Part shown: positions 34,468 through 40,814 of the stretch, in pieces
Position numbering within the stretch: the first letter of the stretch is position 1
Layout: each line of letters begins with the position of its first letter
Position numbers and translations under genes: made by a program
Notes under the pieces: generated by a model
Database searches by the model: none
What the model saw: only the letters and a program-made list of their open reading frames with translations
Told to the model about the DNA's origin: nothing
Assembly (NCBI GenBank): GCA_041650935.1
Contig: JBAZKH010000001.1
Coordinates: 347,337-411,336 of the forward strand
Direction: 5' to 3'
Source: Candidatus Omnitrophota bacterium
Lineage (GTDB): Bacteria; Omnitrophota; Gorgyraeia; 2-01-FULL-45-10
Length of the DNA: 64,000 nucleotides

Positions 34468-36603
34468 ATGAAAATAGCGTATCTCGACTGTTTCAGCGGC
34501 ATATCGGGGGACATGACCATAGGCGCGTTCCTCGACGCAGGCCTTAGCCTCAAGGTCCTTACGCGAGAGCTCGCAAAGCTTAAGCTGAAAGGATACAAGC
34601 TCAGGACGCGTAAGGTGACCCGCGGTGTTATCGCGGGGACAAAATTCGACTGCATAAGCGCCGGCACGGGGCATGGCCACCATTCGCTTCGAAGCATAAA
34701 CGTTCTTATCGACAGGAGCGCGCTTAAATACAGGGTAAAAGAGACCGCTAAGGAGATATTCCGCGCCATAGCGGCCGCGGAGATGAAGGTCCACGGCAAG
34801 CTCAAGCCGGGAGACGTTATTTTTCATGAGCTTGGCGACATCGATTCTATCGTCGACATAGTCGGCGCGGCCATTGCTATCGACGAACTGGGCATAGACG
34901 CGGTCTATTCTTCCGGCGTGAATATGGGCCGTTCGATCGCCGCTACCAGGCACGGCAATATCCCGGTGCCGTCGCCGGCGAGCCTGGAACTTTTAAAGGG
35001 TTTCCCGGTTTCGATCCTGGAGATAGGGGCGGAACTTGTCACTCCGACGGGCGCAGGCATCCTGAAGGTCCTTTCGAAAGCCGCCGGGGCGGTACCGCAA
35101 ATGGAGATTTCGGCGATAGGTTACGGCGCCGGCTCGAAAGAGATAGGCGAGCGGCCGAACCTTCTGCGCGTCCTGATCGGCGTGGCGGAGAGTCCGTTCA
35201 AAGAAGATAACGTCTATGTGGCCGAGACGAATGTCGACGATATGAATCCCCAGCACGTCGGTTATACGATCGATAAATTACTCGGCGCGGGCGCTCTCGA
35301 CGCGTACGTAACCAATATACAGATGAAGAAATCGCGCCCGGCATTTAAATTGACAGCCATTACGGACCCGGCAAAATTACAGCGGATCGCTCATATAATA
35401 TTTACCGAAACGCCGGCAATAGGCCTGCGTTTTTTCTCAGCCGGCAGGATGAAACTAGACAGGAGCCTTAAAACGGTGCGTACTGCTTACGGTAAAGTGA
35501 GCGTTAAGGTGAGTAAGGGCCCGGGCGGCTTATTGACCGTCTCGCCGGAGCATGATGAATGTGTCCGGGCGGCGGGTAAGCGGAAAGTCCCGCTCCGCAA
35601 GGTCTACGAAGCGGCAAAGTTCGCCGCCAGGTCGGCGCTGATGCTTATAATAGCAGGCGCTTTCCTGTCGTCCTGGTCGCTTGTCTTCGCGGACACGGTA
35701 ATTACAAGCAATGGGGAAGAGATAAAGGGTATCGTCCTGGAGGACTATAAGGACCGCATGATCCTGTCTACGGCAAGCGGCGAGAGGACGATAATGAAGT
35801 CCGATATAAAGGAATTATACTACGACGAGGAAGTGGATAACCTCGTCAAACTCGCCGAGCAGGCAAAGGAGCGTCGCGACTACATAAGGGCGCTTACGTA
35901 TTACGACATGGCTTTTAAGGTAAATCCGAATTCCAAGGCCGCGAAGGACGGGCTCGTCTTCCTGGAGGGTTACCTCTTCAGGAAAGAACAGGCGCAGAAA
36001 GAGGATGACGTTAGGAAACGCGAAGATCTCGAGCGTCTCCAGAGGACCGCGGCGATCGAACCTCCGAAGGTGGAGGAGGTCCCGGAGAAGGCCGCGAGGC
36101 TGAAAAAGGCGATAGGGATAACCTTTGAGATAGCGGGCGGTTTCCCGTGCGTGGCAAACGTCCAGCGGAATTCACCGGCCGAAGATGCCGGCATAAAGGC
36201 AGGCGACAGGCTGGTCGCGATCTGGGCGCGGCTTACCGGCTATATGGAACTGAAAGATCTCCTCGACGCGTTCCTCGACAAGCCGTCGCTGGAGCTTAAA
36301 TGCACCATAGAGAGGACGGTCTATATCCGCCTGCCGCCTTTGAAACTTGTGGCCCCGGGCGCCGGCGAGCTCATCGGCGCATCCCTCGCGATGGAATTCG
36401 ACGGTCTCACCGTCTCGTCGGTCCGCGCGAACGGCGCCGCCGCCGAGGCCGGTTTGAAAAAAGGCGATCTGGTTACCTTTATAAACGGGAAACAGACGCG
36501 TTATATGCCGTTAAATAAAGCGATAAGCCTTATAAGAAGATCGAAGGGCGATACGGTGGAATTTGTATTGAGAAGAGAAGTCCTAATGTGGAGGAGGAGT
36601 TAA
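34468..36603 (+). CDS. larC: LarC-family nickel insertion protein (DUF111) fused in-frame to a hydrophobic segment and tandem PDZ domains
   Basis: MKIAYLDCFSGISGDM LarC N-terminus. After about 390 aa comes MLIIAGAFLSSWSLVFA, then two PDZ-like domains (GIKAGDRLVAI, GLKKGDLVTFINGK). No stop codon between the parts. Confidence 0.65.
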   Translation: MKIAYLDCFSGISGDMTIGAFLDAGLSLKVLTRELAKLKLKGYKLRTRKVTRGVIAGTKFDCISAGTGHGHHSLRSINVLIDRSALKYRVKETAKEIFRAIAAAEMKVHGKLKPGDVIFHELGDIDSIVDIVGAAIAIDELGIDAVYSSGVNMGRSIAATRHGNIPVPSPASLELLKGFPVSILEIGAELVTPTGAGILKVLSKAAGAVPQMEISAIGYGAGSKEIGERPNLLRVLIGVAESPFKEDNVYVAETNVDDMNPQHVGYTIDKLLGAGALDAYVTNIQMKKSRPAFKLTAITDPAKLQRIAHIIFTETPAIGLRFFSAGRMKLDRSLKTVRTAYGKVSVKVSKGPGGLLTVSPEHDECVRAAGKRKVPLRKVYEAAKFAARSALMLIIAGAFLSSWSLVFADTVITSNGEEIKGIVLEDYKDRMILSTASGERTIMKSDIKELYYDEEVDNLVKLAEQAKERRDYIRALTYYDMAFKVNPNSKAAKDGLVFLEGYLFRKEQAQKEDDVRKREDLERLQRTAAIEPPKVEEVPEKAARLKKAIGITFEIAGGFPCVANVQRNSPAEDAGIKAGDRLVAIWARLTGYMELKDLLDAFLDKPSLELKCTIERTVYIRLPPLKLVAPGAGELIGASLAMEFDGLTVSSVRANGAAAEAGLKKGDLVTFINGKQTRYMPLNKAISLIRRSKGDTVEFVLRREVLMWRRS

Positions 36604-36605
36604 AT

Positions 36606-37220
36606 ATGGCAGATAATACCGCCGCAAAACCGCGCTTTAAAAGAAAACAGCTTATAGTAGCAAGAAGGTTCCAGCTTAAGTACGCCGGTATAATCTTAGG
36701 GCTCATGTTCATTACGGCAGGTTTTTGTTCGTACGCGATATATTATACTACCATGATACTTTTCGGCGAGAAGCTCGCAAATGTCTATCCACAGGGCCAG
36801 TTGATATCGATCGTCCGGACGGTAAATTTCAGGATACTTATAAGCATGCTTGTGATATCGCCGCTTATAGGTTTCCTGGGCATCTACCTTTCACATAAGA
36901 TAGCCGGTCCTATATACAGGATCGAAAAGTTCCTCGGGAGCATGGCCTCGGGCGATCTGTCTACGCGCATAACCTTAAGGCGAGGCGACGAAATGGTCTC
37001 GCTGGCCGATTCCATAAACAGGCTCACCGACAGCTTGTCCCAGAGAGTCTCTTCCGAAAGGGCCCACATCGAGCATCTACTCGCACAACTCTACGCTTTG
37101 AGAGAGATGGTCAACTCATCGGCTAAAGACAAGGACAGGATGAATGCCTCTATCGAGGCTCTCGATGGCGAAATCCGGCTCCTCAATAGCGAGTTGGAGA
37201 AGTATAAGATTAAAGGATAA
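36606..37220 (+). CDS. HAMP-domain membrane protein
   Basis: Two TM helices, then HAMP (IAGPIYRIEKFLGSMASGDLSTRI) and a coiled coil. GGAGGAGGAG RBS. Confidence 0.55.
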   Translation: MADNTAAKPRFKRKQLIVARRFQLKYAGIILGLMFITAGFCSYAIYYTTMILFGEKLANVYPQGQLISIVRTVNFRILISMLVISPLIGFLGIYLSHKIAGPIYRIEKFLGSMASGDLSTRITLRRGDEMVSLADSINRLTDSLSQRVSSERAHIEHLLAQLYALREMVNSSAKDKDRMNASIEALDGEIRLLNSELEKYKIKG

Positions 37221-37222
37221 AA

Positions 37223-37287
37223 GGGACGGTTCTATTTAATCTTTATTCGGCTCGATCACCTACTCTGAAGAGCTAGTCCCCCAGCCG
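37223..37287 (+). repeat. Copy 1 of the conserved non-coding leader preceding an orphan Rhs C-terminal cassette
   Basis: gggacggttctatttaatctttattcggctcgatcacctactctgaagagctagtcccccagccg. Near-identical copies at 38957, 39076 and 39253. Stop codons in all frames. Confidence 0.6.
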
Positions 37288-37314
37288 TTCAAATTCAACG
37301 GTAAGTACGGCGTA

Positions 37315-37803
37315 ATGCATGAGCCGAACGGCTTCTACTACATGCGCGCTAGGTACTACGACCCTGATGTATGCAGATTCATATCGGAGGATCCGAGCGG
37401 GTTTAGCGGGGGAGACGTTAATCTATATGCCTACTGCGGGAATAATCCGATAAACTTCGCGGATCCGTTTGGGTTGTGCGCTGAGGGCGGTGGAGGTTGG
37501 ACAGAAACCGCCCTGCAAGGTATTGGCATTGCGCTTATTGGTTTAACTGCGGATGATGCAACCGGTATAGGCGTTTTAGATGATCCATTAATACCTGTTT
37601 TAGTTGCGGCTGGCGTTGGGGTTGCTGTAATACAGGCAGCAAACAATAGTGGTAGTGGTAACGGGGCGGAGGAGGAGAAAGAGCATAGAAAAAAACATCC
37701 CAAAGACCACGACAAACATACTAAAGCTCAAGGACATAGCAGTAAAAAAAATAGTAAAGCAAAAGAGCGACTTATAAAAGAAGGAAAGTGGTTTTTTCAA
37801 TAA
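37315..37803 (+). CDS. Orphan Rhs/YD-repeat core tip (…YYDPDVCRFISEDPSGFSGGDVNLYAYCGNNPINFADPFGL) fused to a variable C-terminal toxin domain (glycine-zipper hydrophobic segment plus basic tail)
   Basis: Canonical RHS-repeat-associated core terminal motif ending DPxGL, then a non-conserved CT (37477-37803). The in-frame ORF opens only at 37277, so no full Rhs body upstream. Confidence 0.6.
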   Translation: MHEPNGFYYMRARYYDPDVCRFISEDPSGFSGGDVNLYAYCGNNPINFADPFGLCAEGGGGWTETALQGIGIALIGLTADDATGIGVLDDPLIPVLVAAGVGVAVIQAANNSGSGNGAEEEKEHRKKHPKDHDKHTKAQGHSSKKNSKAKERLIKEGKWFFQ

Positions 37804-37836
37804 TAAAAATAGTAACCAAAAATGGCGCAATGACTA

Positions 37837-38949
37837 ATGCAAAAACAAATTAATGCAATTAAAATGGGACAGAGATATTTATATGGTGACGATGGCTACA
37901 AAAAAAATTATAAAAAAGCGTTTAAATATTTGATGATTGGTGCCAATGCCTCTAACGCAGAATGTCAAAACGATATTGGATATTGCTATGATATGGGATT
38001 TGGAGTTAAAAAGAATCTTAAGCGTGCAATAGAGTGGTATTTAAAAGCAGCAGCCAAAAGAGATAAAGTTGCGTTGTGCAATTTAGGCATAGCGTATGAG
38101 TTCGGAAACGGAGTGAGCATAAATTATAAAAAGGCATTTCAATTTTATCGTAAATCCGCAACATTAGAGCATGCTGATGCACAGTGTAATTTGGGAACGA
38201 TGTATTTAGATGGGTTAGGAACAAAACAAAACTTACGTGAAGGAATTAAGTGGATAAGAAAAGCAGCATTAAATGGTGATTCTAAGGCTCAATATAATCT
38301 TGGAATGGCATATTTAGATGGGGAAGGAGTCAAGATAGATAAACAGGTTGCACTTGGTTGGTTAAAAAGAGCAGCGAGACAAGGGCATATAAAGGCGAGA
38401 AGAAGAATAGGCGTTATCCTACGAAAAAGAAATAGAGAAATAAAGGGGCATTCTACAAAGGCAGGCGAAGGTATGAATGACAGGGCTAAAGAAATCAATT
38501 TTTCAGAACTATTACCTATTTCTAAGATGAAGGGGGATGGCAGAGAAGATACCGCTAGACTTAAAGAAATGCACAAAGAAGCCGTTAATTATATTACATC
38601 TTTTTCTTGGTGTAAAAAAATTGAAGAAAAATATTTTGGTTTAGGTGTCGGAGATATTATAGGAATATATCTGTTTAAGATTCAGCCCTCTAAATCTGAC
38701 ATAAATAAATGGGTTTGGGTTGTGGTCGGAGATTTGCCTCCTGCCTACCTTGTCGTTGATAGGTCTCCTGACCCTGCCTCTGCATTAAATTCATACATAA
38801 GAGAGATGGATGAATGGGTTCAGGCGGTTAAAAAAGGTAAGCCAGTGGATGGTTTAATTCCCGTCAATGCACCTCCGACTGCTGAAAACGCTAAATTATT
38901 AAAAACTCGTTTAAAATTTCTCAAAAAAGAAATCTTGCCCTATTCTTAA
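37837..38949 (+). CDS. Sel1-like repeat (SLR) protein; putative immunity protein for the adjacent Rhs-CT toxin
   Basis: At least five Sel1 repeats (AIEWYLKAA...NLGIAYEFGNGV, AFQFYRKSA...NLGTMYLDGLG, GIKWIRKAA...NLGMAYLDGEG, ...). Markedly AT-rich compared with flanking genes. Immediately downstream of the toxin CT. Confidence 0.55.
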   Translation: MQKQINAIKMGQRYLYGDDGYKKNYKKAFKYLMIGANASNAECQNDIGYCYDMGFGVKKNLKRAIEWYLKAAAKRDKVALCNLGIAYEFGNGVSINYKKAFQFYRKSATLEHADAQCNLGTMYLDGLGTKQNLREGIKWIRKAALNGDSKAQYNLGMAYLDGEGVKIDKQVALGWLKRAARQGHIKARRRIGVILRKRNREIKGHSTKAGEGMNDRAKEINFSELLPISKMKGDGREDTARLKEMHKEAVNYITSFSWCKKIEEKYFGLGVGDIIGIYLFKIQPSKSDINKWVWVVVGDLPPAYLVVDRSPDPASALNSYIREMDEWVQAVKKGKPVDGLIPVNAPPTAENAKLLKTRLKFLKKEILPYS

Positions 38950-38956
38950 GAATAGA

Positions 38957-39075
38957 GGGGACGGTTCTATTTAATTTTTATTCGGCTCGATCACCTACTC
39001 TGAAGAGTCAGTCCCCCAGCCGTAATTAATGGTGCCAACCCAGAAGGTGCCACCCATTGCAGTACAGGAGATAAA
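38957..39075 (+). repeat. Copy 2 of the orphan-cassette leader, joined directly to the trailer element (RHS tip deleted)
   Basis: Leader at 38957-39022, then taattaatggtgccaacccagaaggtgccacccattgcagtacaggagataaa. Confidence 0.55.
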
Positions 39076-39252
39076 GGGTTCTATTTAATTTTTATTCGGC
39101 TCGATCACCTACTCTGAAGAGTTAGTCCCCCAGCCGTTCAAATTCAACGGTAAGTACGGAAACGGATCCGGTAAATGGGGTAATGGTGCTAACCCAGAAT
39201 GGGTAATGGTGCCAACCCAGAAGGTGCCACCCATTGCAGTACAGGAGATAAA
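39076..39252 (+). pseudogene. Copy 3: leader plus truncated RHS tip (FKFNGKYG only) plus internally duplicated trailer
   Basis: Leader at 39076-39136. RHS tip at 39137-39159, then diverges. ggtaatggtgc(t/c)aacccagaa is tandemly duplicated. Confidence 0.5.
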
Positions 39253-39549
39253 GGGTTCTATTTAATTTTATTTAATTTTTATTCGGCTCGATCACCTACT
39301 CTGAAGAGCTAGTCCCCCAGCCGTTCAAATTCAACGGTAAGTACGGCGTAATGCATGAACCAAACGGCTTCTACTACATGCGCGCCAGGTACTACGACCC
39401 TGATGTATGCAGGTTTATCTCGGAGGATCCGAGCGGGTTTAGCGGGGGAGACGTTAATCTATATGCCTACTGCGGGAATAATCCGATAAACTTCGCGGAT
39501 CCGTTTGGAATGTGGTAATGGTGCCAACCCAGAAGGTGCCACCCATTGA
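39253..39549 (+). pseudogene. Copy 4: leader plus complete RHS core tip ending DPFGMW-stop with no toxin domain, plus trailer
   Basis: Leader at 39253-39323 with a tttaatttta duplication. Tip ATG at 39351; stop at 39517-39519 two codons after DPFG. Synonymous-only differences from copy 1 in the tip. Confidence 0.55.
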
Positions 39550-39606
39550 GACGCATTGTGTCCCCGGGATTCGCGAGGCGAAAATCAAAATGATAAAAAG
39601 GACAGG

Positions 39607-40467
39607 TTATCTTCTTCGGATCCTGCGTACTGCCGCGCCCGCTAAACCAAACCCCAGAAGAAGGAAAGTCGAGGGTTCCGGAACAGAGTCGATGGAGCCT
39701 CTCACAGATACCCAATCCTTGACGCAGGTAACCTTGCTGACGTAGGTCTCGTAAGCAGTCCCGTATTCGGCATCCTCAAGCTCCGGGAATAGACTTTTGT
39801 CAATCCTGCCTTCCAGTATATAGGTATCTCCCGTCACCCCGGGTTCAATAGATCCCACACACTTATTATATACTTCGTATGTACCAAGGAGCGTATCGTC
39901 ATAATAATAAGTCCAGACGCCGTTAACGTAGCTACCATTGGCTACGGTAATTGGAAAAGTGTATGGCGACCCGTTATAATGCGCGGCCGTCGTCCAGACA
40001 GTATTCGTGCGATATACGCCCTTGGTCGATAGAGCGTTGATCGGAAGGGGGCAAAGGTCGAGCGCGTATGTGTACTTGCCGGTCTTAAGCAGGTCGTTGG
40101 AGGTCTTGCCGCTAAAATCGAGGAAGATACTCTCATGCGCCCATCCGTAACTGTAAGAATTCGATGATACGACGGCAAAATAGATAGAGTCACCGCGATC
40201 GTCGAAGTATACCGCTTCTATATCATATACCTCATTAAAAGGATCCGACCATGTATTGTTCGTATTGTCCTGGACGACATAGTCGACGCTCGAGCTGGTT
40301 GGAGTCCAATTCGTGAAAGGAGTAACGCCCCAGTCGCTAAGATCGCCGTTAAGCTGATATGATGAGTCCGCGAAAGAATTGCCGGCAAACAGGATAATAG
40401 CGCCTATGACTACCAAATACCTGAATATTGCGGCCAAGACCTTCTTTTCTCTATTTCCGGTAGGCAT
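39607..40467 (-). CDS. Secreted PEP-CTERM sorting-domain protein
   Basis: N-terminal signal peptide. C-terminal VPEPSTFLLLGFGLAGAAVRRIRRR (PEP motif plus TM plus Arg cluster). AGGAGG RBS. Confidence 0.7.
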   Translation of the reverse strand: MPTGNREKKVLAAIFRYLVVIGAIILFAGNSFADSSYQLNGDLSDWGVTPFTNWTPTSSSVDYVVQDNTNNTWSDPFNEVYDIEAVYFDDRGDSIYFAVVSSNSYSYGWAHESIFLDFSGKTSNDLLKTGKYTYALDLCPLPINALSTKGVYRTNTVWTTAAHYNGSPYTFPITVANGSYVNGVWTYYYDDTLLGTYEVYNKCVGSIEPGVTGDTYILEGRIDKSLFPELEDAEYGTAYETYVSKVTCVKDWVSVRGSIDSVPEPSTFLLLGFGLAGAAVRRIRRR

Positions 40468-40678
40468 ATATCATCCTCCTTATTTTTAATTTTTACCCAT
40501 TAGTTATAGGCTTTCTACATCTATATTATCAATTATATTTAAGCAATAATCGTGCCAATATAACGGTTGTTTATAACTAATTGCAGGGGAAAGGGTTGAA
40601 AGTTAATGCATAATAGGCCATGACAATCTTCTGTGTAGTTTTTACAGTACATATAAGAGCAAAAAAAGGACACGCCAC

Positions 40679-40706
40679 TTGACAATGCCGCTTTATAATG
40701 TATACT
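40679..40706 (+). promoter_or_regulatory. Sigma70-like promoter (TTGACA-N16-TATACT) upstream of the small HTH gene
   Basis: TTGACA at 40679-84, TATACT at 40701-06, in an AT-rich 340-bp divergent intergenic region. Confidence 0.35.
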
Positions 40707-40814
40707 TTGTATTATCCTATACTAGTCTGTATCAATAAAGTATAACTAATACCAATACCTTGGCATCACTCGGCATCGATCCCGGGTGAAGTCGAGGGGT
40801 GAGGTGGTGTTGGT

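What the first reader, a model, noticed from the sequence alone, without database searches (positions are those of the whole stretch)
37477..37803. Novel Rhs-CT toxin candidate: glycine-zipper hydrophobic segment followed by a His/Lys-rich basic tail
After the DPFGL autoproteolysis motif, the 109-aa CT is CAEGGGGWTETALQGIGIALIGLTADDATGIGVLDDPLIPVLVAAGVGVAVIQAANNSGSGNG…EEEKEHRKKHPKDHDKHTKAQGHSSKKNSKAKERLIKEGKWFFQ.

It carries GxxxG/AxxxG-like packing motifs, as in membrane-depolarising effectors, plus a strongly basic tail. No nuclease, deaminase or peptidase motif is visible. This is a plausibly membrane-targeting polymorphic-toxin tip without an obvious named family.
Basis: inference. Interest (0 to 1): 0.6.

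Follow-up and report, generated by a model that had tools for sequence, protein, structure and literature searches.

The report
Orphan Rhs toxin tip with immunity gene
This is a stranded end-piece of a bacterial Rhs toxin gene plus its protection gene, and the part most likely to be the toxin is the short basic tail, an unnamed peptide module found in many phyla, rather than the greasy glycine-rich segment.

Summary
The sequence is as described: after DPFGL (37462-37476) comes a 108-aa tip (37477-37800) with two hydrophobic helices and a His/Lys-rich tail, then a Sel1-repeat gene. It matches no Pfam, NCBIfam, PHROG or PDB family.

Three points change the reading.
1. This is not a complete Rhs. 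Only the 79-aa RHS-associated core fragment is present, behind an in-frame stop. It lies next to LarC and HAMP genes in a Candidatus Omnitrophota MAG. Two stubs and a second, tip-less copy of the same fragment follow it.
2. The tip has two independent modules. The hairpin (ADDATGIGxxDDxLIP) also occurs in front of other tails. The tail is a divergent member of a widespread C-terminal mini-module (EHTKxxRPSTxDKHT…W), which also occurs without any hairpin.
3. The downstream gene family follows the tail, not the hairpin. In 19 of 21 tail-bearing loci the next gene is a TPR, Sel1 or third-family protein. One Sel1 is 47% identical to ours. Hairpin-plus-other-tail loci carry a different neighbour.

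The best reading is an orphan toxin/immunity cassette from a low-GC donor. The tail specifies toxicity and immunity, and the hairpin helps membrane insertion. The tail's target is unknown.

The parts
37228..37239 (+). 5' boundary of the repeated unit, with an in-frame TAA at 37237-37239
   Evidence: The frame translation reads GSI*SLFGSITYSEE. The stop sits where relatives have the conserved Tyr of Y-x-Y-[DT]-P-F-G. All four copies share this boundary.
37240..37476 (+). RHS repeat-associated core fragment (79 aa), ending in DPFGL at 37462-37476. The first ATG is at 37315. NCBI's gene model starts at about 37255 on a non-canonical codon.
   Evidence: TIGR03696 E = 2.4e-23, profile positions 4-76 of 76. 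GC3 is 0.658, like host genes. There are 1425 relatives of the 187-aa query (core fragment plus tip), most matching only the core part.
37477..37650 (+). Module A: a hydrophobic helix-loop-helix (aa 1-58). Helix 1 is at 37498-37560, the acidic loop ADDATGIGVLDD at 37549-37584 and helix 2 at 37579-37650.
   Evidence: Kyte-Doolittle 19-residue mean is 2.06 at aa 37-55. AF2 gives helices 8-28 and 35-58. Relatives P0121, P0003, P0002, P0123, P0125, P0126 and P0127-P0133 share the DD-x-T-x-x-G core, most with a following DD-x-x-I-P, and carry different tails.
37651..37677 (+). Gly/Ser/Glu linker (SGSGNGAEE)
   Evidence: Predicted disordered. It is not conserved in relatives.
37678..37803 (+). Module B: the basic His/Lys tail (aa 68-108, KEHRKKHPKDHDKHTKAQGHSSKKNSKAKERLIKEGKWFFQ) plus the stop codon. 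The core motif H-x-K...DKHT is at 37684-37722.
   Evidence: 57% identical over 56 aa to P0122, which has no hairpin. It aligns to the EHTKxxRPSTxDKHT...W module of 20+ loci. Ours has HPKD where most have RPST.
37837..38448 (+). Putative immunity gene, Sel1-repeat domain (aa 1-204)
   Evidence: PF08238 E = 7.8e-46. AF2 solenoid with pLDDT 72-92. 47% identical over 181 aa (E = 8e-54) to the Sel1 gene that follows a tail-B Rhs in a Pyrinomonadaceae MAG, L030. No signal peptide. GC3 is 0.27.
38449..38949 (+). Extra C-terminal domain of the Sel1 protein (aa 205-370), of unknown family
   Evidence: Only a weak DUF4826 hit (E = 0.1). AF2 pLDDT is below 50. It is absent from the Sel1 partners in L010, L021, L030 and L031.
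38963..39025 (+). Stub 1 of the RHS-core fragment (63 nt), joined to the 33-nt element
39077..39159 (+). Stub 2 of the RHS-core fragment (83 nt, internally deleted), joined to the same element
39264..39518 (+). Second full copy of the RHS-core fragment (96% identical). It ends DPFGMW-stop and has no tip (NCBI MFA5142866.1).
39516..39548 (+). 33-nt element TAATGGTGCCAACCCAGAAGGTGCCACCCATTG. Its 29-nt core GGTGCC...CCCATTG recurs exactly at 39031, 39208 and 39520, each after a core-fragment copy.
   Evidence: Three exact matches against 0 expected. No Rfam hit.

Best explanation
This is an orphan Rhs toxin/immunity cassette in a Candidatus Omnitrophota genome. A native-composition, 5'-truncated RHS-core fragment is fused at DPFGL to a foreign low-GC block. 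That block encodes a two-module tip and a Sel1-repeat partner.

Module B, the basic tail, is a divergent member of a widespread, unnamed, roughly 40-aa C-terminal module (core E-H-x-K...[DN]-K-H-[TE], usually EHTKxxRPSTxDKHT, then a basic stretch with a Trp). I infer that it is the part conferring toxicity and recognised by the Sel1 partner. It probably acts in the cytoplasm on a conserved polyanionic target such as nucleic acid or the ribosome.

Module A, the hydrophobic hairpin with a conserved acidic loop, is inferred to be an accessory membrane-insertion module. Its strongly hydrophobic second helix would insert into the target's inner membrane, and the membrane potential would help draw the cationic tail inward.

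In this genome the cassette lacks the YD shell and any secretion domain, so it cannot be delivered as encoded. It most likely serves as a silent reserve for recombination, as a retained immunity gene, or both.

Shown: the anatomy, modularity, composition break, co-occurrence statistics and absence from named families. Inferred: toxicity, the target, the hairpin's role and the expression state.
For: Orphan status:
- In-frame stop at 37237, and only a 79-aa core fragment.
- Upstream genes are LarB, LarC-PDZ and a HAMP protein. The window holds no YD repeats.
- There are four copies or stubs of the fragment.
- Among the 120 best relatives listed, none outside this locus exceeds 81% identity to the query.

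Foreign cassette: GC3 is 0.658 in the core fragment and 0.27-0.30 in the hairpin, tail and Sel1 gene. The break falls exactly at DPFGL|C (GC profile).

Modularity:
- The hairpin occurs with at least four other tails: P0003, P0121, P0126 and P0130.
- The tail occurs directly after DPxGL (L010, L021, L031), after non-hydrophobic linkers (L009/P0122, L017), and after other hydrophobic segments (L013, L015, L034, L029, P0036).

The partner tracks the tail:
- Of 21 distinct tail-bearing loci, 8 are followed by one TPR family, 5 by Sel1 proteins and 6 by a third family of about 180 aa. Two are unclassified.
- The L030 Sel1 is 47% identical to ours.
- Hairpin plus tail X (L037, L039) is instead followed by a different HEIxHH family (E = 5e-8 between the two).

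The tail is a real, selected peptide:
- Only synonymous changes in HDKHTKAQGH against a 62%-GC relative.
- The free-standing 48-aa homologue in SR1 shows 22-23 synonymous against 7 non-synonymous codon differences, while its upstream intergenic DNA is unalignable.

Hydrophobic pre-toxin segments precede a recognised toxin domain in relatives: the L004 main Rhs and P0120 carry such a segment followed by Ntox37 (PF15535, E = 1e-7). This parallels the Tde1 glycine zipper needed for translocation (PMC10240207).

The partners have no signal peptide or transmembrane segment.
Against: - No experiment exists, so toxicity of either module is unshown.
- Our tail lacks the otherwise near-invariant R-P-S-T (it has H-P-K-D), so it may be a decayed or functionally shifted variant.
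- The invariance of RPST/DKHT among L007-L036 is partly forced by the DNA pattern used to find them. Only P0122, P0123, P0125, P0036 and P0134 are pattern-independent.
- The TPR and Sel1 partners are themselves strongly basic (pI 9.4-10.9). This is awkward for simple sequestration of a basic peptide.
- The closest tail relative (P0122/L009) is paired with a TPR gene, not a Sel1 gene.
- Free-standing tail homologues in SR1 (next to serS) and in a Coriobacteriia phage head module have no adjacent partner gene. The peptide is therefore not intrinsically lethal to its producer, or it is not a toxin in those settings.
- Many contexts are short metagenomic contigs.
- The AF2 model is low-confidence.
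Confidence: 0.55

Rival explanations
1. One reading: the hairpin is itself the killing activity. It would be a small pore or ionophore that dissipates membrane potential. The basic tail would only anchor or orient it (positive-inside), and the Sel1 protein would neutralise it before export.
For: - One clear transmembrane-grade helix plus a second hydrophobic helix.
- A conserved acidic loop (ADDATGIGxxDD) that could line a cation path.
- Several related Rhs tips are almost entirely hydrophobic and Gly-rich, with no other domain: P0011, P0031, P0048 and P0064.
- Known precedents are EsxX (PMC12744356), the CDI ionophores (PMC11630599) and Tox-WTIP (PMC3482391).
- EsxX has a cytoplasmic immunity family as well as a membrane one (PMC12744356).
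Against: - The partner gene family follows the tail, not the hairpin.
- The hairpin is combined with unrelated tails, including globular-looking ones such as P0126.
- The tail occurs with its partners in loci with no hydrophobic segment at all: L009, L010, L017, L021 and L031.
- No Pfam glycine-zipper family hit and no GxxxGxxxG run.
- Two helices against the five-helix bundles of CDI ionophores (PMC11630599).
- No membrane-protein partner.
Confidence: 0.2
2. The cassette is expressed internally as a type II toxin-antitoxin-like pair. A 162-182-aa product would be made from 37255 or 37315 and regulate the producer's own growth, as shown for Salmonella orphan Rhs.
For: - An intact ORF of 162 aa from ATG 37315, annotated as a 182-aa protein by NCBI.
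- The Sel1 gene starts 33 nt after the stop, on the same strand.
- Precedent in PMC7043789.
Against: - No sigma-70-like promoter or terminator was found on the + strand in 36900-39700. This is a weak test for this phylum.
- No convincing Shine-Dalgarno sequence lies before 37315.
- The surrounding stubs indicate decay rather than maintenance.
Confidence: 0.12
3. The tail module is not a toxin at all. It would be a nucleic-acid- or partner-binding peptide tag used in several contexts. The TPR, Sel1 and class-3 genes would be chaperones or adaptors rather than immunity proteins, and the window copy would be a non-functional relic.
For: - Free-standing homologues under purifying selection in SR1 next to serS.
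- Free-standing homologues immediately upstream of scaffold and major-capsid genes in a Coriobacteriia viral contig.
- TPR and Sel1 folds are classic peptide-binding chaperones (from my own knowledge).
- The class 1 and class 2 partners are basic, like the tail.
- The locus is littered with truncated copies.
Against: - The module occupies the toxin position, the extreme C-terminus after DPxGL, in at least eight bona fide RHS proteins from Myxococcus, Planctomycetota, Acidobacteriota and others. In several, nothing else lies after the core.
- In 19 of 21 tail-bearing loci the next gene belongs to one of three recurrent families, which is the canonical toxin-immunity layout.
- The cassette has the low-GC composition typical of Rhs tips.
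Confidence: 0.13

Closest known systems
Orphan Rhs-CT/immunity modules of Enterobacteria (Poole et al. 2011, PMC3150448; Koskiniemi et al. 2014, PMC3967940)
   Same: A fragment of rhs core homology ends in the DPxGL-type motif and is fused to a variable tip. An immunity gene follows, the composition breaks at the core/tip junction, and there are several tandem remnants.
   Different: There is no full-length rhs upstream or anywhere in the 64-kb window. The fragment is only 79 aa. The host is a Candidatus Omnitrophota MAG. The tip is a non-enzymatic two-module peptide.
Tde1 N-terminal glycine-zipper translocation segment (Ali et al. 2023, PMC10240207)
   Same: A short Gly-rich hydrophobic segment lies N-terminal to the payload. 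In Tde1 this segment permeabilises the membrane and is needed for delivery but not for the payload's own activity. That matches the hairpin's position ahead of interchangeable tails, and the position of other hydrophobic Gly-rich segments ahead of Ntox37 in related Rhs proteins.
   Different: There is no sequence similarity. Ours is a helix-acidic loop-helix with a conserved ADDATGIGxxDDxLIP motif rather than consecutive GxxxG repeats. It sits after the Rhs cleavage site rather than at a protein N-terminus. Its function is untested.
Small membrane-depolarising polymorphic toxins: CDI ionophores (PMC11630599), EsxX (PMC12744356) and Tox-WTIP (Zhang et al. 2012, PMC3482391)
   Same: A small, hydrophobic, non-enzymatic C-terminal tip of a polymorphic toxin. 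Tox-WTIP is also a two-helix unit found on RHS proteins.
   Different: The RxxR and WxTIP motifs are absent. There are two helices rather than a five-helix bundle. The partner is a soluble Sel1 protein rather than a membrane protein. The partner family follows the tail.
Very small non-catalytic toxin domains such as Ntox38 (33-43 aa) and the poorly described Ntox39 ('several basic residues', RHS-associated, Firmicutes) in Zhang et al. 2012 (PMC3482391)
   Same: A tip of about 40 residues without a recognised catalytic domain, inferred to act by binding a cellular component. Ntox39 is described as basic and RHS-linked.
   Different: Ntox38 is hydrophobic, actinobacterial and carries PxhhG. Identity with Ntox39 could not be tested: no model or alignment was available and no Pfam hit was obtained. 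The tail module here spans many phyla and has three partner families.

Membership tests
Rhs/YD-repeat polymorphic toxin (full-length) | RHS repeat-associated core domain ending in the DPxGL-type motif | tested here: met
   TIGR03696 E = 2.4e-23, profile positions 4-76 of 76. DPFGL is at 37462-37476.
Rhs/YD-repeat polymorphic toxin (full-length) | YD-repeat shell and an N-terminal secretion or trafficking domain in the same ORF | tested here: not met
   An in-frame stop at 37237 lies immediately after the HAMP gene. No YD motif occurs in any frame of the window. No RHS Pfam hit on the five large ORFs scanned.
Rhs/YD-repeat polymorphic toxin (full-length) | Variable C-terminal tip with a compositional break, followed by an immunity gene | tested here: met
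   GC3 falls from 0.658 to 0.29 at DPFGL|C. The Sel1 gene starts 33 nt downstream. Partner families recur across loci.
Orphan Rhs-CT/immunity module | Core-homology fragment plus tip plus immunity gene, lacking the 5' bulk of rhs | tested here: met
Orphan Rhs-CT/immunity module | Located downstream of a full-length rhs whose core can recombine with it | tested here: not met
   None in the window. Among the 120 best relatives listed, none outside this locus exceeds 81% identity to the query. An exact-pattern scan of metagenome contigs found nothing. The rest of the 710-kb contig and the MAG could not be read.
Glycine-zipper membrane proteins or toxins | Consecutive (G/A/S)xxxGxxxG repeats, or a Pfam Gly-zipper family match | tested here: not met
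   No Pfam hit at E <= 1. Only isolated small-xxx-small pairs and one GxxxAxxxA.
Glycine-zipper membrane proteins or toxins | Membrane permeabilisation or depolarisation | not testable with these tools
   Needs expression and membrane-potential assays.
CDI-type ionophore toxins | Five-helix membrane-spanning bundle with a polytopic membrane immunity protein (PMC11630599) | tested here: not met
   AF2 gives two helices plus a disordered tail. The partner is a soluble Sel1 protein.
Tox-WTIP pore-forming domain | Two transmembrane helices with RxxR in the first and Wx[ST]IP in the second (PMC3482391) | tested here: not met
   Neither motif is in the 108-aa sequence.
Ntox37 (PF15535) | Pfam model match, with an HWDVQ-type C-terminal motif as seen in the two matching relatives | tested here: not met
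   No hit for our tip. The L004 main Rhs and P0120 do match.
Unnamed basic tail module defined here (EHTKxxRPSTxDKHT...W) | Core E-H-x-K ... [DN]-K-H-[TE] followed by a basic stretch with an aromatic residue near the C-terminus | tested here: met
   KEHRKKHPKDHDKHT...KWFFQ aligns with 19 relatives. H, K and H are invariant. It is 57% identical to P0122.
Unnamed basic tail module defined here (EHTKxxRPSTxDKHT...W) | R-P-S-T in the centre of the motif | tested here: not met
   Ours reads H-P-K-D. P0123 and P0036 also deviate. The invariance in the other loci is partly forced by the search pattern.
Unnamed basic tail module defined here (EHTKxxRPSTxDKHT...W) | Followed by a TPR (class 1), Sel1 (class 2) or class 3 partner gene | tested here: met
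   A Sel1 partner, 47% identical over 181 aa to the L030 partner. 19 of 21 loci follow this rule.

The most novel reading that the evidence does not exclude
The roughly 40-residue basic tail would be a new, minimal, linear-motif polymorphic toxin. It would work by binding a universally conserved cytoplasmic polyanion or machine such as DNA, RNA or the ribosome. It would be neutralised by three unrelated partner families. Its free-standing relatives would be genuine small proteins of SR1/Absconditabacteria and of Coriobacteriia phage head modules, so a housekeeping or phage nucleic-acid-binding peptide would have been weaponised. The hydrophobic hairpin would be a portable, membrane-potential-assisted self-translocation device for such cationic payloads.
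Probability: 0.3. Interest if true: 0.7.

Novelty: new member of a known kind. Interest (0 to 1): 0.45.

Why it matters
Rhs tips are a proven source of new toxic activities and of tools such as DddA-derived base editors (from my own knowledge). A toxin module of only about 40 residues would be among the smallest polymorphic-toxin payloads, given that it is conserved from Myxococcus to Planctomycetota, Acidobacteriota, Bacteroidota and Bacillota and has three dedicated partner families. It could be tested directly as a synthetic peptide.

The separable hairpin bears on an open question: how Rhs and T6SS-type payloads cross the target's inner membrane.

The locus also shows that Omnitrophota, a phylum with proposed host-dependent lifestyles (from my own knowledge), carries Rhs cassette remnants and a retained immunity gene. 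That is evidence of past or ongoing interbacterial conflict.

For this particular window the practical conclusion is modest. It holds a stranded cassette, not a deployable weapon.

Tried and rejected
Family and structure searches on the tip
- Pfam, NCBIfam, PHROGs, PDB sequence and profile searches and Foldseek on the tip or tail all returned nothing.
- AF2 of the tip was too low in confidence (pLDDT 59) for fold inference.
- AF2 of the Sel1 protein resolved only the solenoid. The C-terminal domain stayed below pLDDT 50, so I did not run fold searches on it.

Homology searches
- The exhaustive 1.8-billion-protein search with the tip found only 9 relatives.
- The word-indexed profile search with the tail alignment was almost empty, with 9 candidates, probably because of low complexity. 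A degenerate DNA pattern replaced it.
- The profile search with the hairpin alignment gave only seven short proteins.

Locating the source and a parent gene
- Exact-protein contig look-ups for the window ORF failed.
- A genome-collection scan for the tip found nothing.
- An exact DNA scan for the core fragment in metagenome contigs found nothing. A parent rhs could therefore not be located.

Other checks that led nowhere
- The partner proteins of L004 and L002 have no BLASTP similarity to our Sel1 protein. This led to recognising three partner classes rather than one.
- tblastn of tail peptides and of the Sel1 C-terminal domain against phage and plasmid collections found no match.
- A full-text search for the motif strings found no paper.
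- The supplement of Zhang et al. held no Ntox39 alignment.

Ideas considered and dropped as untestable or unsupported
- Resemblance of the tail to an HKD/PLD motif. It fits only our variant.
- Resemblance to AT-hook or PrAMP PRP motifs. These are absent from our variant.
- Resemblance to the N-termini of bL27, bL33, bL35 or ArfA. These are composition-level resemblances recalled from memory, not tested.
- Resemblance of the hairpin loop to the K+-channel TVGYG filter. The spacing is wrong.
- Resemblance of the hairpin to the PT-TG pre-toxin domain. There is no Pfam hit.
Full report
**1. What is at the coordinates**

The ORF 37315..37803 (+) encodes 162 aa. Read in frame from 37240, the sequence is SLFGSITYSEELVPQPFKFNGKYGVMHEPNGFYYMRARYYDPDVCRFISEDPSGFSGGDVNLYAYCGNNPINFADPFGL. 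The upstream part is a near-complete RHS repeat-associated core domain (TIGR03696, E = 2.4e-23, profile positions 4-76 of 76).

The tip itself hits nothing:
- Pfam at E <= 1 and NCBIfam
- PDB by sequence
- PHROGs
- Foldseek against PDB with the AF2 model

Hydropathy gives one clear transmembrane-grade segment (aa 37-55, Kyte-Doolittle 19-residue mean 2.06) and a weaker one (maximum 1.53). There are only scattered small-xxx-small pairs. AF2 predicts helices at aa 8-28 and 35-58, a disordered stretch at 59-94 and a short terminal helix, with low confidence (pLDDT 59). The gene 33 nt downstream (37837-38949) has five Sel1 repeats (E = 7.8e-46).

**2. It is an orphan fragment, not a complete Rhs**

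- An in-frame TAA at 37237 lies just after the stop of a HAMP-domain gene (36588-37220). Upstream of that are a LarC-PDZ fusion and LarB.
- The TAA sits where relatives have the conserved Tyr of Y-x-Y-[DT]-P-F-G.
- No YD repeat or other RHS motif occurs in any frame of the 64-kb window, except a second copy at 39384-39509. None of the five large ORFs scanned is an Rhs.
- The exact protein is on record from a 710,442-bp contig of a Candidatus Omnitrophota MAG. NCBI annotates a 182-aa and a 75-aa 'RHS repeat-associated core domain-containing protein' on either side of the Sel1/TPR gene.

The 75-aa gene is a 96%-identical second copy of the core fragment (39264-39518). It ends DPFGMW-stop and has no tip. 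Between the two full copies lie two stubs of the same fragment (38963-39025 and 39077-39159). The stubs and the second full copy are each joined to the same 33-nt element, whose 29-nt core occurs three times exactly against 0 expected. The region has no Rfam match.

GC3 is 0.658 in the core fragment, similar to LarC (0.674) and the HAMP gene (0.597). It drops to 0.27-0.30 in the hairpin, the tail and the Sel1 gene, and the break falls exactly at DPFGL|C. This is the classic signature of an Rhs tip/immunity cassette acquired from elsewhere. Orphan modules of this kind are known (PMC3150448, PMC3967940).

I could not find a parent rhs:
- Among the 120 best relatives listed, none outside this locus exceeds 81% identity to the query.
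- An exact DNA scan of metagenome contigs found nothing.
- Contig look-ups for the window ORF failed.

**3. The tip is two modules**

An exhaustive search of 1.84 billion representative proteins with the 108-aa tip returned nine proteins. They split cleanly into two groups.

Hairpin relatives:
- P0121, P0003, P0002, P0123, P0125 and P0126 match aa 1-57 only (67-74% identity for the closest).
- They share the DD-x-T-x-x-G core, most with a following DD-x-x-I-P.
- They then continue into unrelated tails.
- A profile search added seven short proteins with the same motif.

Tail relatives:
- P0122 matches aa 52-107 only (57% identity) and has no hairpin. Its tail follows a short acidic linker after DPDGF.
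- Against the DNA of this 62%-GC relative, the stretch HDKHTKAQGH differs only at synonymous positions.
- P0123, P0125, P0036 and P0134 carry recognisable versions of the tail.

I then scanned for a degenerate DNA pattern encoding H-x-K-x-x-R-P-S-T-x-D-K-H-T. It found 15 metagenome loci, 15 loci in species-representative genomes and one viral contig. In these the module (EHTK[GN]xRPSTxDKHTKPRPGR..KKK..W..) takes four forms:
- The extreme C-terminus of bona fide RHS proteins. Examples are Myxococcus llanfair…ochensis AM401 and MAGs of Schlesneria, Pyrinomonadaceae and others.
- Directly after DPxGL (L010, L021, L031).
- After hydrophobic Gly-rich segments (L013, L015, L034, and L029/L026 with a signal peptide).
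- After a Pro/Gly linker (L017).

One caveat applies. The invariance of RPST/DKHT in these loci is partly imposed by the pattern. The pattern-independent relatives conserve only E-H-x-K…[DN]-K-H-[TE]. Our copy has H-P-K-D in place of R-P-S-T.

**4. The neighbouring gene follows the tail**

I translated the gene downstream of every tail-bearing ORF and compared them all against all. The 21 distinct loci divide as follows.

| Downstream gene | Loci |
|---|---|
| Class 1: one TPR family, …GEGIRxARSxVND.RYR… (pairwise E = 1e-83 to 1e-13) | 8 |
| Class 2: Sel1-repeat proteins, including the window | 5 |
| Class 3: acidic family of about 180 aa (one borderline Hfq-like Pfam hit) | 6 |
| Unclassified | 2 |

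- The Sel1 gene after the Pyrinomonadaceae Rhs (L030) is 47% identical to ours over 181 collinear residues (E = 8e-54). That is clearly closer than the other Sel1 partners.
- Two loci with the same hairpin but a different tail (P0003/L037 and P0121/L039) are followed by a different 156-166-aa family with an HEIxHH motif (E = 5e-8 between them).
- Hairpin plus tail B is followed by class 1 TPR (L004, and L040 as a partial match) or by Sel1 (the window).

The partner gene therefore co-varies with the tail and is indifferent to the hairpin. By the usual logic of polymorphic toxins, this marks the tail as the module that needs neutralising.

Related Rhs proteins also place a hydrophobic Gly/Ala-rich segment in front of a recognised toxin domain. 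The main Rhs of L004 and P0120 both carry such a segment followed by Ntox37 (PF15535, E = 1e-7). In L004 the orphan immediately downstream carries our hairpin, the tail and a TPR gene. Among the 89 nearest RHS-core relatives with tips of at least 40 aa, 13 begin with a transmembrane-grade segment.

**5. Likely mechanism**

The shown facts are given above. The following is inference.
- The partners lack signal peptides and transmembrane segments. This suggests neutralisation in the producer's cytoplasm and a cytoplasmic site of action.
- The tail is cationic (net +9 over 41 aa, five His) and predicted disordered. It has a strictly conserved short motif, typical of a peptide that folds on a conserved target.
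- I favour a polyanionic target (nucleic acid or ribosome) but have no direct evidence.
- The hairpin's second helix could insert N-out/C-in, with the membrane potential helping to pull the cationic tail inward. This is analogous in role, not in sequence, to the Tde1 glycine zipper, which is needed for translocation but not for DNase activity (PMC10240207).
- In this genome, without the shell, delivery is impossible. The cassette is most plausibly a silent reserve, a retained immunity gene, or both. Internal expression as a TA-like pair (PMC7043789) is a minority alternative.

**6. What does not fit**

- The class 1 and class 2 partners are strongly basic (pI 9.4-10.9; our Sel1 domain has net charge +23). 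Only class 3 is acidic.
- The closest tail relative is paired with a TPR gene, not a Sel1 gene.
- Our motif is degenerate at RPST.
- Free-standing tail homologues exist without a partner gene:
  - A 48-aa gene after serS in SR1/Absconditabacteria-like genomes is under clear purifying selection. It shows 22-23 synonymous against 7 non-synonymous codon differences, while the upstream intergenic DNA is unalignable.
  - A roughly 52-aa gene lies immediately upstream of scaffold and major-capsid genes in Coriobacteriia genomes and an IMG/VR contig.
- These observations keep alive the rival view that the peptide is a general binding module rather than a toxin in its own right.

**7. Comparison with known families, and novelty**

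- The locus works like an orphan Rhs-CT/immunity module. It lacks the defining neighbourhood of a full-length rhs.
- It is not a member of the glycine-zipper Pfam families, Tox-WTIP, the CDI ionophores or Ntox37. The defining features were tested and not met.
- The tail may or may not correspond to Zhang et al.'s barely described Ntox39 ('several basic residues', RHS, Firmicutes; PMC3482391). No alignment was available, and no paper prints the motif.
- I rate it a new member (an unnamed toxin-tip family with its partner families) of a known kind of system.
- Interest is moderate. The orphan itself is ordinary. The tail module, its three partner families and its free-standing relatives are worth a specialist's follow-up.

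Noticed in passing
window 38963-39548: Two truncated stubs and one full, tip-less copy (ending DPFGMW-stop) of the 249-nt RHS-core fragment. Each is joined to the same 33-nt element TAATGGTGCCAACCCAGAAGGTGCCACCCATTG. Stub 2 looks like an internal deletion of the full copy and contains a tandem duplication of part of the element. It is probably recombination scars, but the element itself is unexplained and has no Rfam hit.
   Followed up: partly
window 38449-38946: The Sel1 partner protein carries an extra C-terminal domain of about 165 aa (…WVWVVVGDLPPAYLVVDRSPDP…). This domain is absent from the Sel1 partners of other tail-bearing loci. It gives only a weak DUF4826 hit (E = 0.1), AF2 pLDDT is below 50, and there is no tblastn hit in plasmids. 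It could be a second, fused immunity domain.
   Followed up: partly
L012, L014, L016, L024, L025, L033 (SR1/Absconditabacteria-like); L023 (Peribacteria): A free-standing 48-aa basic gene (MAEHTKNARPSTYDKHTSRSKKLNKQEKVKNGSYTSGGSPKGRHRKDK) homologous to the toxin tail lies just after serS. It shows 22-23 synonymous against 7 non-synonymous codon differences between lineages, with unalignable upstream DNA. It is a real, unannotated small protein.
   Followed up: partly
L022, L027, L028 (Coriobacteriia genomes); L041 1060-1218 (IMG/VR contig): A gene of about 52 aa (M[AK]EHTKGARPST[WH]DKHTDRDKGR.QKKIKDNP.WIDQGKRTNS.RNKARK) related to the tail lies immediately upstream of phage scaffold and major-capsid genes in L022 and L041, and within a few kb of such genes in L027 and L028. 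This hints at a nucleic-acid- or capsid-associated role for the peptide family.
   Followed up: partly
L004, L008, L009, L015, L032, L034, L035 and L010, L021, L030, L031, plus window 37837-38448: The TPR and Sel1 proteins encoded after the basic tail are themselves strongly basic (pI 9.4-10.9), whereas the third partner family is acidic (pI 4.2-4.8). This is unexpected if all three simply sequester a cationic peptide.
   Followed up: no
L037 1243-1743; L039 529-999: Loci with the same hairpin but a different tail (…PPEPPKGWWQETLEKLADVLDELQQ and …PPDKGPMKWAYIVYKVIDAITNILG) are followed by a distinct 156-166-aa family with an HEIAHH/HEIGHH motif (E = 5e-8 between the two). This may be a second unnamed tail/partner pair.
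   Followed up: no
L004 1-6454: A full-length Rhs has a DUF2341/LamG-like N-terminus. After DPSGN it has a linker, a hydrophobic segment and an Ntox37 domain. A 94-aa gene follows, then an orphan carrying our hairpin, the basic tail and a TPR gene. It is a textbook main-plus-orphan array for this tip family.
   Followed up: partly
window 34468-36603: LarC (nickel-pincer cofactor insertion, aa 4-380) is fused to a C-terminal extension of about 330 aa containing a hydrophobic segment and two PDZ domains. This is an unusual architecture for LarC.
   Followed up: no
window 39607-40467 (-): A PEP-CTERM-anchored protein is encoded convergently, immediately after the cassette array. The GC-poor intergenic region at about 40450-40750 (31% GC) flanks it.
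   Followed up: no
window 37689-37695 and 37744-37751: A7 and A8 homopolymer runs lie inside the tail-coding region. These are slippage-prone, but the frame is intact relative to P0122.
   Followed up: no
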